64,000 bases of DNA from the NCBI GenBank assembly GCA_963705915.1, contig OY970126.1, forward strand, positions 102,753 to 166,752, given 5' to 3'. The translations under genes were made by a program, and so were the position numbers. Position 1 is the first letter of the stretch. Each line of letters begins with the position of its first letter. Shown piece after piece: positions 53,085-55,765 of the stretch. Source of the stretch: an uncultured bacterium (lineage in GTDB: Bacteria > Patescibacteriota > Minisyncoccia > UBA6257 > 2-01-FULL-56-20). The notes under the pieces were generated by a model that was not told the DNA's origin, searched no databases, and saw only the letters and a program-made list of their open reading frames with translations.

Positions 53085-53119
53085 AAATTTAGGCGAGTAT
53101 ACCTTCATAGCATGTAGCT

Positions 53120-53692
53120 ATGAAAATGATTATACTTATAACAATGACTTTTTCGGACATAGCAAGCTCTACAATAGGAGCAGGGCAATTTTTGTCATCA
53201 CACATTCTAGGAGAAACGATAACCCTCATAATAATCGCGATTGCGGCGATATTGGCTCGTCCTATAACCAATATGCTTGACCGCTTCTCTCCACCAAAGG
53301 ATGTACAAAAAGACGTGATAGTGTCTTGGGTGGAAACCTACCTAGATGCCATTTTTGAGGCAGTCAATAATGGGACGAGAGATGTTGTATTGAAAGCTCA
53401 CGGATTACGATATTACGATAATTCCCACAATCAAGAATGGTTTGGCTATTGGAATAGGAGATTGAAACCAGAAGACAGGACAGGGCTTACGGTTCCCAAT
53501 ACAACTGATCTAGTTATTCATCACTACAACTTACTTAGTCATGCGGTCTATTGCGCCTACGTAACGGACAATTCAGGAAAAGAATATCGCTATTTCCCAG
53601 AAGGGTACTATCGGGGTCATATAAAGCGATTTTGGTATTGGGCGACAGGAAGAAAGTTCAAAGTACCCCCTGTAACCTTTCCCACGGAATGA
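53120..53692 (+). CDS. island ORF A: hypothetical protein, N-terminal TM + aromatic-rich domain
   Basis: 190 aa; hydrophobic N-terminus (IILITMTF...TITLIIIAIAAILA), C-terminal Trp/Tyr-rich soluble region; AT-rich codon usage distinct from flanks. Confidence 0.5.
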   Translation: MKMIILITMTFSDIASSTIGAGQFLSSHILGETITLIIIAIAAILARPITNMLDRFSPPKDVQKDVIVSWVETYLDAIFEAVNNGTRDVVLKAHGLRYYDNSHNQEWFGYWNRRLKPEDRTGLTVPNTTDLVIHHYNLLSHAVYCAYVTDNSGKEYRYFPEGYYRGHIKRFWYWATGRKFKVPPVTFPTE

Positions 53693-53732
53693 AAGTAGGT
53701 TTTGGGATACAATTAAGAAGACATTTTCTCAT

Positions 53733-54149
53733 ATGGGCGATATCTTTAAACGCGACATTTTATCTCATCTCGAAACCATTTCCAATGATAATTGGGGTTC
53801 ATTAGAAAAAAGCATTTTATCGGTTATTGCGAGTGGCTTCCTGGGTCTTTTCATTGGTTTCAGTAAAGACAATCTTTTCCATAGTGGAACGCTGATTTTT
53901 TCACTATTTTGTTTCGCTAGCTGTATTATATTTTTTACACTATCTTATTTGGTGCATCATTTCCTCACTTCATCATTAAAGAAAAAAATGAAGGCAAAAC
54001 CGGATCAATTCCCAGAGGAAGATTATGCTAAATTAGCAGAAGAAAGCTGGCTTCGTTATGCTATGAGTTTTTGTAATTATGCTTTTGTTGCTTGTTTCAT
54101 AGCCGGAATAATCGCAATAACAATTTTTGGATATTTAAATCTTGTTTAA
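53733..54149 (+). CDS. island ORF B: small membrane protein (3-4 TM)
   Basis: 138 aa hydrophobic ORF. Confidence 0.45.
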   Translation: MGDIFKRDILSHLETISNDNWGSLEKSILSVIASGFLGLFIGFSKDNLFHSGTLIFSLFCFASCIIFFTLSYLVHHFLTSSLKKKMKAKPDQFPEEDYAKLAEESWLRYAMSFCNYAFVACFIAGIIAITIFGYLNLV

Positions 54150-54151
54150 TA

Positions 54152-54328
54152 ATGAACTGGAAAAAGATAGTAAAATGGATATTTATTCTCGCAATCATTG
54201 TTTGGTGGTTTAATGCCATACGGACGGAGCCGATACAGGGCGATAAAGAATTACTTATTGGAAGCAATATCGTATTTATTGGCATACTTCTTATCATTGG
54301 ACCACATGTTAAAATACCAAAAGAATGA
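54152..54328 (+). CDS. island ORF C: 59-aa 2-TM protein
   Basis: MNWKKIVKWIFILAIIVWWFNAIRTEPIQGDKELLIGSNIVFIGILLIIGPHVKIPKE; 2 nt after ORF B stop. Confidence 0.4.
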   Translation: MNWKKIVKWIFILAIIVWWFNAIRTEPIQGDKELLIGSNIVFIGILLIIGPHVKIPKE

Positions 54329-54457
54329 CAGACAAAGATAAGTTTTATAAACTCCTTGAGAAAATGGAGTATTTCAAGTCGATTTCCGGATTTAGGTTTA
54401 TATCTAACAAGACCGACTACGAGTGTGGCGCCGAATCAAATTCGGAGAAAATCTAAA
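54326..54457 (+). CDS. island ORF C': 43-aa ORF, start overlapping ORF C stop (ATGA)
   Basis: MTDKDKFYKLLEKMEYFKSISGFRFISNKTDYECGAESNSEKI; below ORF-track length cutoff. Confidence 0.25.
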
Positions 54458-54620
54458 ACCTCATAAAAATAAAATAAAGAAAGCCCTCCTAATCGCCAGA
54501 CATGTGTTCAAAAAAGAATCTTCTATAAGCTTCGTATTTTCCACCGAAATCAATGTTGATAAAAAGATATGCGATGAGATGGGGTTTACCAAGGTTACAA
54601 CTTGGAAAAAAGGAAAGTAA
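54423..54620 (+). CDS. island ORF D: 65-aa Lys-rich ORF
   Basis: Ends 13 nt before convergent SIR2-like gene stop; coding status uncertain. Confidence 0.2.
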   Translation: MWRRIKFGENLKPHKNKIKKALLIARHVFKKESSISFVFSTEINVDKKICDEMGFTKVTTWKKGK

Positions 54621-54632
54621 ACGCTTTTGCAA

Positions 54633-55655
54633 CTAAGCCTTCGCGATATTTTTCTTGATATCTAAGAACACTCCTGTCGGAGATTGATCCGCTGGAAATA
54701 TTTCCTTTAATGAATAGGGGAAATAGCCTTTGATGGCTTTCCAAATTTTGATTGTAGGAGCAATTTCATAACCTGCACCAGGTTCTTTCTTGCCCTCCAT
54801 CCTATCTTTGAAATTTTCAGGTTGCTCGGGTGAAATTATATAGATTTCCAATTTATGCTCATCAATGGCTTTTAAGATGAGATTATTGATATGCTCATCC
54901 CGAAAGCTGTATCCGATGACAAATAATCTCGTTCCCGGTTTAGAGATCGCTTCTTCGAAAATATTGAAATACCAATTCAGTAGAGGCTCCTTTGTTATAT
55001 CTTCCAATTTATTGGTTCCTAAAATTAACTGACTGCTTCCGTCGTGGGAAAGCCAGCCTATAGAACCGTGAAGTTTGATATAGCAATAACCTCCGATAGA
55101 AGGCAATTTTTTTTCTTTGTATTCTTTTAATTGATCTTCGTTTGGCAAAGACACCTTAGTAGTGGAATCAATTCTTCCGGATTGGATCGCGTCAAAATAA
55201 GGTCTATTGCCAGGAACAGAAAACCCCAACGGCATCGTTTTGTTTTCGCGTTCAATAAATAGATCTTGATTTAAAGTGAAGTGTGCGCCAACCTCCCCTG
55301 ACCGCCCCGCGAAATCGCCGAGCCATTGTCTGACATTTCCAGTGTAGATACCAAACTTGCCATAATCTCCCTGAGAATATCTTTTTAGAGAATCATCCAT
55401 TGAAGAATAACTTTCCAAGACGATATCCTGAAAAACCTTCTTATCGTTGGCGGTGTACCTGGGATCTCTTTTGACGGCAGAATACACCGACTCGAAATCG
55501 AAGTCATTTTTTAAGACTTCTCTAATCTGGGGGATGGCGTCCATTTGAGGATTGCTGAGTATTTTCGACCACATTTCTTTGGCTAATAAGCCCCCAAAAT
55601 TGAAAGAGAAGCCAGCTCCAGTAAGCAGAATATTTTTCTTAGTTATTAAAGCCAT
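54633..55655 (-). CDS. SIR2_2-family (DHS-like NAD-binding) protein, standalone; candidate NAD+-hydrolysing defence effector
   Basis: ILLTGAGFSFNFG (GAGFS motif of defence-type SIR2), FTLNQDLFIERE (Asn/Asp catalytic pair), YIKLHGSIGW (catalytic His), FVIGYSFRDEHI (C-terminal SIR2 motif); 340 aa. Confidence 0.75.
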   Translation of the reverse strand: MALITKKNILLTGAGFSFNFGGLLAKEMWSKILSNPQMDAIPQIREVLKNDFDFESVYSAVKRDPRYTANDKKVFQDIVLESYSSMDDSLKRYSQGDYGKFGIYTGNVRQWLGDFAGRSGEVGAHFTLNQDLFIERENKTMPLGFSVPGNRPYFDAIQSGRIDSTTKVSLPNEDQLKEYKEKKLPSIGGYCYIKLHGSIGWLSHDGSSQLILGTNKLEDITKEPLLNWYFNIFEEAISKPGTRLFVIGYSFRDEHINNLILKAIDEHKLEIYIISPEQPENFKDRMEGKKEPGAGYEIAPTIKIWKAIKGYFPYSLKEIFPADQSPTGVFLDIKKNIAKA

Positions 55656-55765
55656 CCCGGTTTTCCTTATATACTAAATTACCCGACCCCTCTTGGTCTA
55701 TGGTGCCAAAACTAGACTGCTGGGGGAAATGGATTCGAATCCAAGGAATCGGTTACAATTAAGGT

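What the first reader, a model, noticed from the sequence alone, without database searches (positions are those of the whole stretch)
53100..55700. AT-rich island with a standalone SIR2_2-like protein convergent on a cassette of small membrane proteins: candidate undescribed defence module
Seen: the segment between mnmA and lysS is clearly lower in GC than everything around it. The - strand encodes a 340-aa protein with the full defence-type SIR2 motif set: GAGFS at residues ~12-16, TLNQD, KLHGS and GYSFRD. The + strand encodes four or five short ORFs (190, 138, 59, 43 and 65 aa). Most have 1-4 predicted TM helices, are tightly packed and show ATGA coupling. The two gene sets converge at ~54.63 kb. 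Established: SIR2_2/DHS-like domains are NAD+-depleting effectors in Thoeris (ThsA), DSR1/2, SIR2-HerA and SIR2-pAgo systems. Inference: none of the usual partners (TIR, HerA, pAgo, SLOG, STAND NTPase) is present. A lone SIR2 next to a compact set of small membrane proteins on a horizontally acquired island would be an undescribed architecture. The membrane proteins could act as sensor/holin-like partners or as an unrelated phage-exclusion cassette.
Basis: partly seen in the sequence, partly recalled or inferred. Interest (0 to 1): 0.72.

Follow-up and report, generated by a model that had tools for sequence, protein, structure and literature searches.

The report
Lone SIR2 gene on foreign islet
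A low-GC, horizontally acquired 3-kb islet carries an intact stand-alone defence-type SIR2 (NAD-cleaving) gene from a large, mobile, partner-less family, and the small membrane-protein genes next to it are unrelated cargo rather than a new SIR2-plus-membrane defence module.

Summary
Window 52.6-55.7 kb is the lowest-GC stretch of the 64 kb (0.39 vs 0.50). It encodes a 340-aa SIR2_2 protein (54633-55655, minus strand) with invariant GAG, TLNQD, KLHGS and GYxFxD motifs, convergent on tightly packed plus-strand ORFs.

The proposed SIR2 + membrane-protein module is not supported. None of 87 other loci encoding SIR2 relatives has a relative of ORFs A-E. None of 8 loci encoding ORF A relatives has a SIR2. 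The two gene sets are convergent, so they are separate transcripts.

The SIR2 belongs to a large family (1296 hits, about 300-370 aa, SIR2_2 as the only Pfam domain, many in Patescibacteria). No neighbour is conserved. Serine recombinases and R-M methylases recur a few times. The gene is AT-richer than its flanks in 55 of 63 loci, and it also occurs on viral contigs. Its closest solved folds are all anti-phage SIR2s, led by SIR2-HerA (Nezha), but no HerA, TIR, pAgo, SLOG or STAND is present.

Most likely it is a single-gene NAD+-depleting defence effector, comparable to the published "sole-Sir2"; the function itself is untested.

ORF A is a real but rare membrane-anchored Ig-like protein. ORF B has no detected relatives, and C-E were only checked against family libraries and fetched loci.

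An unreported extra: the mnmA 3' end is duplicated around an odd tRNA at the islet's left edge.

The parts
52600..55700 (.). Low-GC islet between mnmA and lysS (GC 0.388 vs 0.50 for the window)
   Evidence: Composition profiles and the GC calculation. It is absent downstream of mnmA in 80 related loci.
54633..55655 (-). Stand-alone SIR2_2 protein, 340 aa. Putative catalytic residues N129, D131 and H196; NAD-binding G13-A-G15.
   Evidence: Pfam PF13289 at 40.2 bits. PADLOC SIR2 models match partially, up to 52 bits. The motifs are invariant in alignment A1. The AlphaFold2 model has pLDDT 88.8. The Foldseek top hits are SIR2-HerA SIR2 chains, E 2e-9. A PDB profile search finds 8yhx at 5.5e-13.
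53120..53692 (+). ORF A, 190 aa: N-terminal hydrophobic helix (TM about residues 28-46) followed by a conserved Ig-like beta-sandwich domain (about 64-183). A real gene from a rare family.
   Evidence: Exhaustive phmmer finds 8 remote relatives, E 6e-22 to 6.5e-4, aligned in A3. Model pLDDT is 79, and 85-94 in the soluble domain. The only PDB hit below 1e-3 is archaeal type IV pilin 8fk7. No ORF of this length arose in 2000 simulations.
53733..54149 (+). ORF B, 138 aa, three hydrophobic segments. No relatives found.
   Evidence: The word-indexed search of 5.8e9 clusters finds only itself. No ORF of this length arose in 2000 simulations. There are sub-threshold hits only, e.g. TIGR01218 at 23 bits against a cut-off of 35.
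54152..54328 (+). ORF C, 58 aa, two hydrophobic segments. Starts 2 nt after the B stop.
   Evidence: It is called as a gene on the identical contig L001. No family hits.
54325..54456 (+). ORF D, 43 aa, soluble. ATGA overlap with the C stop.
   Evidence: It is called on L001. Its length alone is not significant.
54423..54620 (+). ORF E, 65 aa, GTG start, overlaps D. Doubtful as a gene.
   Evidence: It is listed but not called on L001. It has no TM segment and no family hits.
52495..52581 (+). Direct repeat copy 1: the in-frame 3' end of mnmA
   Evidence: the repeat finder family D1, 87 nt.
52991..53077 (+). Direct repeat copy 2 (90% identical): an orphan mnmA 3' fragment inside a 45-aa ORF (52947-53084) preceded by AAGGAGG
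   Evidence: Pfam tRNA_Me_trans_C matches at 26.3 bits.
52604..52677 (-). 74-nt tRNA with anticodon UAG (Leu by anticodon, but without the long variable arm), lying between the two repeats
   Evidence: ARAGORN. Rfam scores it 50.3 bits against 63-66 for the window's other two tRNAs.
52726..52763 (.). Perfect 18-bp inverted repeat (hairpin), with a near-consensus promoter-like site on the minus strand (52839 to 52812), upstream of the tRNA

Best explanation
The 3.1-kb low-GC stretch between mnmA and lysS is a horizontally acquired islet with no surviving mobility gene.

Its one interpretable gene is a 340-aa single-domain SIR2_2 enzyme from a large, mobile, partner-less family. The family's closest characterised relatives are the NAD+-hydrolysing effectors of anti-phage systems, above all the SIR2 of SIR2-HerA/Nezha.

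I propose that it acts alone as an NADase. It would be held inactive in uninfected cells, probably by its helical small domain and/or its oligomeric state, as in other defence SIR2s. On infection it would be switched on, cleave NAD+ through N129/D131/H196, and abort the infection.

The plus-strand ORFs A-D form a separate, convergently transcribed cargo cassette: a membrane-anchored Ig-like protein plus small hydrophobic proteins. They share the islet but not a function with the SIR2.

Shown here: domain identity, intact catalytic motifs, fold similarity, lack of any conserved partner, foreign composition, and independence from ORFs A-E.

Inferred: NADase activity, a defence role, and the mode of activation.
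For: Domain and catalysis:
- SIR2_2 scores above the Pfam threshold.
- GAG, TLNQD, KLHGS and GYxFxD are invariant in 35 family members sharing 38-69% identity with the window protein.
- These motifs align with FTTNYD, K(L/I)HGS and GYGFxDxHIN of solved anti-phage SIR2s. In PsSIR2 the putative catalytic residues are N163/D165/H212 (PMC11472057).

Fold:
- The model is confident (pLDDT 88.8, pTM 0.89).
- All 50 listed Foldseek PDB hits are from anti-phage systems: SIR2-HerA, KomC, SPARSA and DSR2. The best is E 2e-9 with TM 0.5-0.59.

Stand-alone status:
- The 120 best of 1296 homologues are 299-368 aa; 119 have SIR2_2 as their only Pfam domain and one has none recorded.
- In 66 loci the only recurrent neighbours are a large serine recombinase (8 loci) and an N6/N4 methylase (4 loci).
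- Among 150 flanking proteins from 44 loci no Pfam or PADLOC family exceeds 4-5 members, and no HerA, TIR, Ago or STAND appears among the 25 most frequent families listed.

Mobility and defence context:
- The closest relatives sit beside serine recombinases, Mtase+DpnII, OLD-TOPRIM+UvrD, GmrSD, SMODS+SLATT, RT+bAvd and terminase/ParB-Mtase genes.
- 33 viral contigs carry relatives, among integrases, transposases, invertases, repressors, terminase and portal genes.
- The gene is AT-richer than its flanks in 55 of 63 loci, by 6.7 GC points on average and up to 27.

Precedent: the single-gene 'sole-Sir2' has NADase activity, and a close homologue of it defends against T2 and T4.

Independence from ORFs A-E: plus the convergent orientation.
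Against: - No experiment exists for this family. Expression in this organism is unknown.
- The protein has no recognisable sensor domain, so how it would detect infection is unexplained.
- In the nearest solved system (SIR2-HerA), SIR2 alone is autoinhibited and needs HerA for activation (PMC11472057). A HerA-less relative might therefore be inactive or do something else.
- PADLOC and NCBIfam defence models match only partially. NF042942 scores 50 bits against a cut-off of 500.
- In more distant family members many neighbours are housekeeping genes such as glutamate synthase, GidA and glutamine synthetase. Defence-island association is clear only for the closest relatives.
Confidence: 0.55

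Rival explanations
1. One reading: the SIR2 and the small membrane proteins A-D(E) form one defence module, with the membrane proteins acting as sensors or holin-like co-effectors.
For: They are physically adjacent on one low-GC islet with similar GC (0.372 and 0.397). A, B and C are membrane-like. SIR2 or TIR signalling systems with TM effectors do exist (e.g. Thoeris TM effectors, cited).
Against: - No relative of A, B, C, D or E lies within about 8 kb of the SIR2 in 87 other family loci (tblastn at E<=10 gave only noise).
- None of 8 loci with ORF A relatives has a SIR2.
- The sets are convergent, hence separate transcripts, and they end 12-176 nt apart.
- The word-indexed search found no relatives of B; C-E were compared only with family libraries and the fetched loci, so no co-evolution signal is possible for them.
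Confidence: 0.06
2. The SIR2 is not an immune effector. It is either a toxin/addiction or competition factor of mobile elements, or a regulatory NAD-dependent ADP-ribosyltransferase/deacylase acting on a cellular target.
For: It has no sensor domain or partner. Many distant family members sit among housekeeping genes. An HTH (XRE-type) gene lies directly upstream in one close relative and in 2 of 150 neighbours, reminiscent of toxin-regulator pairs. The family's mobility fits a selfish element gene as well as it fits defence.
Against: All 50 listed structural matches are anti-phage NADases; none is a classical sirtuin. No antitoxin-like neighbour is conserved. The closest relatives are embedded in R-M, Gabija-like, GmrSD and CBASS-like clusters.
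Confidence: 0.2
3. The gene is a decaying remnant or orphaned half of a two-gene system (a Nezha-like SIR2 that lost HerA), and is now non-functional in this genome.
For: The best fold and sequence matches are SIR2-HerA SIR2s. The islet has no mobility genes left and no recombinase remnant. It also carries a gene fragment, the mnmA 3' duplicate.
Against: The ORF is full length, and every family-invariant residue is intact. The whole family of at least 1296 proteins has the same HerA-less form with strong sequence conservation (50% mean column identity). That implies purifying selection on a stand-alone function.
Confidence: 0.08

Closest known systems
SIR2 subunit of the SIR2-HerA (Nezha) anti-phage system (PDB 8sub/8sxx/8j4u E. 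coli; 8w9l/8wld Paenibacillus; 8yhx)
   Same: It is the best structural match (Foldseek E 2e-9, TM 0.5-0.59) and the best sequence match (profile E 5.5e-13). It has the same motif set, FT(L/T)N(Q/Y)D, K(L/I)HGS and GYGFxDxHIN, and the same two-lobed layout of a Rossmann large domain plus a helical small domain.
   Different: No herA gene lies next to it here or in any of 66 family loci. The protein is 40-90 residues shorter (340 aa vs 381-428). Identity is only 13-21%. NCBIfam NF042942 scores 50 bits against a cut-off of 500. In Nezha, SIR2 alone is autoinhibited and is activated by assembly with HerA (PMC11472057).
sole-Sir2 (single-gene CRISPR-supervised immune system; bioRxiv 10.1101/2024.12.27.630466)
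   Same: It is a single small SIR2 protein with no partner. Sole-Sir2 was shown to convert NAD+ to ADPR, and a close homologue protects E. coli from T2 and T4. That is the same functional logic proposed here.
   Different: Sole-Sir2 is about 440 aa, with an extra N-terminal region proposed as its sensor and a C-terminal SIR2 most like that of DSR2. The window protein is 340 aa, its SIR2 fold starts at residue 5, and it is closer to Nezha SIR2 than to DSR2 (E 2e-9 vs 1e-4).
DSR1/DSR2 (defence-associated sirtuins), ThsA of type I Thoeris, SIR2-APAZ of SPARSA, KomC of Kongming, Avs5
   Same: They share the SIR2 NADase catalytic core and are recovered as weaker structural matches (DSR2 E 1e-4, SPARSA 6e-5, KomC 7e-6).
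   Different: Each has a fused sensor or regulatory domain, or an obligatory partner: the about 1000-aa DSR2 sensor, SLOG plus the TIR protein ThsB, APAZ plus short pAgo, KomA/KomB, or NOD plus a sensor. None of these is present here.
Membrane-anchored pilin-like / Ig-like proteins (for ORF A only)
   Same: A long N-terminal hydrophobic helix is followed by a beta-sandwich. The only PDB hit below 1e-3 is an archaeal type IV pilin (8fk7, E 5e-4).
   Different: TM-scores are low (0.36/0.49). No prepilin-type cleavage motif is evident in the N-terminus, which is not conserved across the family. No pilus genes lie nearby. There are no Pfam, NCBIfam, PHROG or PADLOC hits.

Membership tests
Pfam SIR2_2 (PF13289) superfamily | Score at or above the curated gathering threshold | tested here: met
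   40.2 bits against a cut-off of 24.5, E 4.6e-10, residues 171-284.
Defence-type SIR2 NADases | NAD-binding GxG loop and the catalytic Asn/Asp and His (N163/D165/H212 in PsSIR2) | tested here: met
   G13-A-G15, N129/D131 and H196 are invariant in A1. They align to the FTTNYD and KxHGS motifs of 8yhx and 8j4u. The reference residues come from PMC11472057.
Defence-type SIR2 NADases | Demonstrated NAD+ hydrolysis and phage protection | not testable with these tools
   This needs biochemistry and plaque assays.
SIR2-HerA (Nezha) | Adjacent, usually overlapping, herA ATPase/helicase gene | tested here: not met
   The islet encodes only ORFs A-E, none with a family hit. No HerA appears among the recurrent or most frequent neighbour families across 66 and 44 family loci.
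SIR2-HerA (Nezha) | NCBIfam NF042942 SIR2_antiphage equivalog score of at least 500 bits | tested here: not met
   50.2 bits, and only residues 231-282 match.
Thoeris type I (ThsA/ThsB) | C-terminal SLOG domain on the SIR2 protein and a neighbouring TIR protein | tested here: not met
   There are no SLOG or TIR hits. The C-terminal 60 residues are part of the compact SIR2 fold.
DSR1 / DSR2 | Large (about 900-1000 aa) protein with a C-terminal sensor region | tested here: not met
   The protein is 340 aa. DSR2 is only a weak fold match (E 1e-4, TM 0.40 by query length, 0.16 by target length).
SPARSA (SIR2-APAZ + short pAgo) | Fused APAZ domain and an adjacent short Argonaute | tested here: not met
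   The Aga_SIR2 PADLOC models match the SIR2 core only (47 bits). No pAgo ORF is in the islet.
sole-Sir2 | Single-gene system with no partner | tested here: met
sole-Sir2 | About 440-aa protein with an extra N-terminal region; sequence homology to the published proteins | tested here: not met
   The protein is 340 aa and the SIR2 strand beta1 starts at residue 5. Homology itself was not tested because no sequence was available.
Lamassu (LmuA-SIR2 + LmuB) | Adjacent SMC-like LmuB | tested here: not met
   LmuA scores only 19.6 bits, and there is no SMC-like neighbour.
Phage holin / lysis cassette (for ORFs B and C) | Match to a holin family and an adjacent endolysin | tested here: not met
   There are no PHROG or Pfam hits and no endolysin in the islet. 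The only hint is that one ORF A relative lies next to a PG_binding_1 protein on a phage-like contig.
Type IV pilin (for ORF A) | Class III signal peptide with a conserved N-terminal hydrophobic helix, and pilus-assembly genes nearby | tested here: inconclusive
   The fold hit to 8fk7 is weak. The N-terminal region is not conserved and shows no obvious G/A-F/hydrophobic-x-x-x-E motif. There are no pilus genes in the islet.

The most novel reading that the evidence does not exclude
This HerA-less, Nezha-type SIR2 clade could be an autonomous one-domain immune system that is especially common in Patescibacteria/CPR. On this reading, a 340-aa protein with no accessory domain both senses infection (through its helical small domain or a change in oligomeric or filament state) and depletes NAD+. 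That would make it the minimal known SIR2 defence, and a distinct lineage from sole-Sir2.
Probability: 0.3. Interest if true: 0.5.

Novelty: new member of a known kind. Interest (0 to 1): 0.3.

Why it matters
If the family is an active single-protein NADase defence, it would show how small a SIR2 immune protein can be. It would raise a tractable question: how is a sensor-less SIR2 kept off and then switched on? It would also add a defence gene to the poorly charted immune repertoire of ultra-small CPR bacteria.

For this particular finding, the main value is negative. The apparent SIR2 + membrane-protein module is a chance juxtaposition on a foreign islet, not a new system.

Tried and rejected
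1. Conserved SIR2 + A-E neighbourhood. tblastn of A-E against 88 SIR2 loci (1.14 Mb) gave only noise apart from L001, which is the same genome. Rejected.

2. The reverse test. Contexts of five ORF A relatives in 8 loci contain no SIR2. Rejected.

3. A hidden partner for the SIR2. All-vs-all clustering of 350 neighbours from 66 loci, plus Pfam and PADLOC scans of 150 neighbours, found no recurrent partner. The immediate neighbours of the closest relatives (538, 567, 221 and 182 aa) have no Pfam domain and differ from locus to locus.

4. Family assignment of ORFs A-E. Pfam, NCBIfam, PHROGs and PADLOC gave nothing above threshold.

5. ORFs A and B in the 5.8-billion-cluster word-indexed search. 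Each found only itself. The exhaustive search then found 8 remote relatives of A. So the 'no relatives' result for B is provisional, and C-E were never searched exhaustively.

6. ORF A as a phage protein. There is no BFVD fold hit below 1e-3. One relative lies on a phage-like contig; the others lie among core genes or next to an IS1595 transposase.

7. A mobility gene or its remnant in the window. tblastn with three serine recombinases from SIR2 relatives gave no hit better than E 0.015.

8. The odd tRNA in viral contigs. There was no exact match to its first 25 nt.

9. SNP-based coding test. The only other copy, L001, is 100% identical, so it gives no information.

10. Absence of a Shine-Dalgarno site as evidence against ORFs A-D. 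Rejected, because 36 of 43 long ORFs in the window lack one.

11. Host identification. Cluster look-ups returned no names. The CPR assignment is therefore an inference from three things: the 827-kb contig, mnmA relatives in 0.1-um groundwater fractions, and the named SIR2 relatives.

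
Full report
**1. 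Observation**

The window averages 0.50 GC. The stretch from the mnmA stop (52588) to the lysS start (55766) drops to 0.32-0.43 in 400-nt windows and is 0.388 overall. It is the lowest-GC part of the 64 kb. mnmA (51452-52588) and lysS (55766-57214) are confirmed by Pfam.

The minus strand encodes a 340-aa protein (54633-55655) that passes the Pfam SIR2_2 threshold, at 40.2 bits against 24.5. The plus strand carries these ORFs:

| ORF | Coordinates | Length | Hydrophobic segments |
|---|---|---|---|
| A | 53120-53692 | 190 aa | 1 |
| B | 53733-54149 | 138 aa | 3 |
| C | 54152-54328 | 58 aa | 2 |
| D | 54325-54456 | 43 aa | 0 |
| E | 54423-54620 | 65 aa | 0 |

- The C/D ATGA overlap is real. B and C are 2 nt apart.
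- The TM counts come from a Kyte-Doolittle scan.
- E overlaps D, starts with GTG, and was not called on the identical public contig L001.
- The A and B reading frames are far longer than chance: 0 of 2000 Markov-1 simulations reached them.

The description is therefore confirmed, with small corrections.

**2. The SIR2 protein**

A 35-sequence alignment of relatives sharing 38-69% identity with the window protein shows several invariant blocks: G13-A-G15, F126-T-L-N129-Q-D131, K194-L-H196-G-S198 and G248-Y-x-F-x-D253-x-H-x-N.

A profile of this alignment finds three solved proteins, all SIR2 subunits of SIR2-HerA systems: 8yhx at 5.5e-13, 8j4u at 3.6e-9 and 8w9l at 2.4e-6. The alignments place TLNQD on FTTNYD and KLHGS on K(I/L)HGS. 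In PsSIR2 the putative catalytic residues are N163, D165 and H212 (PMC11472057). This makes N129, D131 and H196 their equivalents.

The AlphaFold2 model is confident (pLDDT 88.8, pTM 0.89). It is one compact domain that begins with a beta-strand at residue 5 and ends with a structured C-terminal segment.

All 50 listed Foldseek PDB hits belong to anti-phage systems, in this order: E. coli SIR2-HerA (E 2e-9, TM 0.5-0.59), PsSIR2, KomC, SPARSA and DSR2. No classical sirtuin is among them.

Defence-specific HMMs match only in part. The best PADLOC SIR2 model scores 52 bits, and NCBIfam NF042942 scores 50 bits against a cut-off of 500. The protein is therefore a defence-type SIR2 but not a member of any named system.

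**3. Is it part of a module with the membrane ORFs?**

The SIR2 has 1296 relatives in the 5.8-billion-cluster database. The best 120 are all 299-368 aa; 119 have SIR2_2 as their only Pfam domain and one has none recorded. The named ones are Parcubacteria, Nomurabacteria, Jacksonbacteria and Taylorbacteria.

I fetched 87 further loci that encode relatives. The tests gave these results:

- tblastn of ORFs A-E against all of them gave nothing better than E 0.4.
- Clustering 350 flanking ORFs from 66 loci gave only two recurrent neighbours: a large serine recombinase (8 loci) and an N6/N4 methylase (4 loci).
- Pfam and PADLOC scans of 150 flanking proteins from 44 loci showed no family in more than 4-5 proteins. 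No HerA, TIR, Argonaute or STAND was among the 25 most frequent families listed.
- ORF A has eight remote relatives. The five I could place genomically lie in 8 loci, none of which has a SIR2.

Combined with the convergent orientation, this rejects the proposed SIR2 + membrane-protein module.

**4. What the SIR2 family looks like in its other homes**

The closest relatives (60-66% identity) sit in mobile or defence contexts:

- L082: a serine recombinase, Mtase+DpnII, and an OLD-TOPRIM+UvrD (Gabija-like) pair.
- L084: terminase-like and ParB-Mtase genes.
- L086: an XRE-type HTH directly upstream, plus a serine recombinase.
- L088: EcoRI methylase, GmrSD, SMODS+SLATT, and RT+bAvd.

Thirty-three IMG/VR viral contigs carry relatives. 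Their neighbours include integrases, transposases, invertases, repressors, terminase and portal genes.

Across 63 loci the SIR2 gene is AT-richer than its flanks in 55. The mean difference is 6.7 GC points, and it reaches 27 points in two high-GC Desulfobacterota MAGs. This is a family-wide signature of repeated recent transfer. More distant members often sit among housekeeping genes.

**5. The islet in this genome**

KH-efp-mnmA synteny is conserved in 80 metagenomic loci with mnmA at 52-77% identity. None of them has a SIR2, ORF A or ORF B relative, a duplicated mnmA end, or a lysS relative of comparable identity right after mnmA. Some more distant loci have a lysS-like match of only 22-32% identity 2-5 kb downstream of mnmA.

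The closest relative (L089) continues with normal-GC genes. One relative (L096) has the order lysS-dnaE-tRNA-Thr-tRNA-Thr-tRNA-Trp-efp-mnmA, so the mnmA|lysS junction in the window is also a rearrangement breakpoint.

No recombinase or recombinase remnant is in the window.

The host rarely uses Shine-Dalgarno sites: 36 of 43 long ORFs have none. In contrast, the SIR2 has AAGGA and the orphan mnmA fragment has AAGGAGG. This is consistent with foreign origin, and it means the lack of an SD before ORFs A-D says nothing about whether they are translated.

**6. The left edge**

The last 87 nt of mnmA (52495-52581) recur at 52991-53077 with 90% identity. The second copy lies inside a 45-aa ORF that matches the mnmA C-terminal barrel.

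Between the two copies lie three features:
- a 74-nt tRNA with anticodon UAG (52604-52677, minus strand);
- a perfect 18-bp hairpin;
- a near-consensus promoter-like site on the minus strand.

The tRNA is Leu by anticodon but lacks the long variable arm. It has a C at position 37 and a C-A mismatch in the anticodon stem. It scores lower in Rfam than the window's other tRNAs.

This pattern resembles an att-type duplication left by integration into the 3' end of mnmA. Alternatively, the mnmA fragment may have been co-transferred from a donor. I could not distinguish the two.

**7. The small ORFs**

ORF A is a genuine gene. Nine sequences share a variable N-terminal TM helix and a conserved ~120-aa domain (VVN-GT..HG..D..YYVYV-D..YR-YP-G..IKRFWYW). 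The domain is modelled as an Ig-like beta-sandwich with pLDDT 85-94.

Its only PDB match below 1e-3 is an archaeal type IV pilin, and that match is weak. There is no viral fold match. Its relatives lie on a phage-like contig next to a PG_binding_1 protein, next to an IS1595 transposase, or among core genes.

ORF B found only itself in the word-indexed search. B, C, D and E have no family hits. Because that same search also missed ORF A's remote relatives, 'ORFan' is provisional for B. C, D and E were never searched against the large protein databases at all.

I regard A-D as an accessory membrane-protein cassette of unknown role. E is doubtful.

**8. Mechanism**

The best-supported reading is that the SIR2 acts alone as an NAD+ hydrolase. 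It would be kept off in uninfected cells and switched on by infection, causing abortive infection.

- Shown here: the fold, the catalytic set, the absence of any conserved partner, and the mobile or defence context of close relatives.
- Inferred: enzymatic activity, the immune role, and regulation.

By analogy with PsSIR2, where the small domain autoinhibits the pocket, and with filament- or assembly-activated SIR2 effectors (titles), control through the helical small domain and oligomeric state is the most plausible route.

A published precedent for a partner-less SIR2 defence exists: sole-Sir2, about 440 aa, with NADase activity, a close homologue of which protects against T2 and T4. That protein has an extra N-terminal region and resembles DSR2, so it is probably a different lineage.

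**9. Verdict**

- The 'undescribed SIR2 + membrane-protein module' part does not.

What remains is an uncharacterised member of the known class of SIR2 NADase defence genes. It is notable mainly for being minimal, HerA-less and common in CPR bacteria.

Interest is modest at 0.3. The most novel surviving reading, an autonomous one-domain SIR2 immune system, has a probability of about 0.3.

Noticed in passing
window 52495-52581 and 52991-53077 (ORF 52947-53084): The last 87 nt of mnmA are duplicated 496 nt downstream at 90% identity. The second copy sits in a 45-aa ORF with a perfect AAGGAGG Shine-Dalgarno site, in a genome where 36 of 43 long ORFs have none. It looks like an att-type duplication or a co-transferred donor fragment. 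None of 80 related mnmA loci has it.
   Followed up: partly
window 52604-52677 (minus strand): A 74-nt tRNA with anticodon UAG (Leu) that lacks the long variable arm of bacterial tRNA-Leu. It has C at position 37 and a C-A mismatch in the anticodon stem. Rfam scores it 50 bits against 63-66 for the window's other tRNAs. It lies 15 nt after the mnmA stop, between the two mnmA repeats. There is no exact match to its 5' 25 nt in viral contigs.
   Followed up: partly
window 52726-52763 and 52839-52812: A perfect 18-bp inverted repeat, scored as a terminator-like hairpin on the minus strand, and an 11-of-12 sigma-70-like promoter on the minus strand. Both lie upstream of the odd tRNA.
   Followed up: no
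L002-L088 (63 loci with enough flank): Across phyla, the SIR2-family gene is AT-richer than its flanks in 55 of 63 loci, by 6.7 GC points on average. The extremes are 0.33 vs 0.60 in L009 and 0.365 vs 0.587 in L005. This is a family-wide horizontal-transfer signature.
   Followed up: yes
L096 (metagenome relative) compared with window 50.8-62.3 kb: The relative has the gene order lysS-dnaE-tRNA-Thr-tRNA-Thr-tRNA-Trp-efp-mnmA. The window has efp-mnmA-[islet]-lysS-dnaE-tRNA-Thr-tRNA-Trp. The islet therefore sits at a synteny breakpoint.
   Followed up: partly
L088 (closest SIR2 relative on a 10-kb contig): A dense defence cluster: serine recombinase, EcoRI-type methylase, GmrSD, SIR2, SMODS+AGS_C with SLATT_4 (CBASS-like), and RT plus bAvd (DGR-like).
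   Followed up: no
L082 9018-10634 and the no-DNA place: The identical SIR2 protein P0008 occurs on 17 contigs. In L082 it is followed at +1 nt by a 538-aa protein with no Pfam domain. On another contig it is followed, after a 139-nt gap, by a 492-aa protein. This may be a lineage-specific partner or a variable cargo gene.
   Followed up: partly
L169 1260-2571: The best ORF A relative (P0123, 40% identity) sits on a phage-like contig directly upstream of a secreted PG_binding_1 protein and near an SU10-type adaptor gene. This hints that the ORF A family may be envelope- or lysis-associated in phages.
   Followed up: partly
window 1001-2000 and 61001-62000: Two other low-GC patches (0.416 and 0.426). 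The second lies next to tRNA-Thr (60940-61012). Neither was examined.
   Followed up: no
whole window: Shine-Dalgarno motifs are almost absent upstream of long ORFs: 36 of 43 have no match of 4 nt or more to AAGGAGGTG. This suggests SD-independent initiation in this organism.
   Followed up: partly
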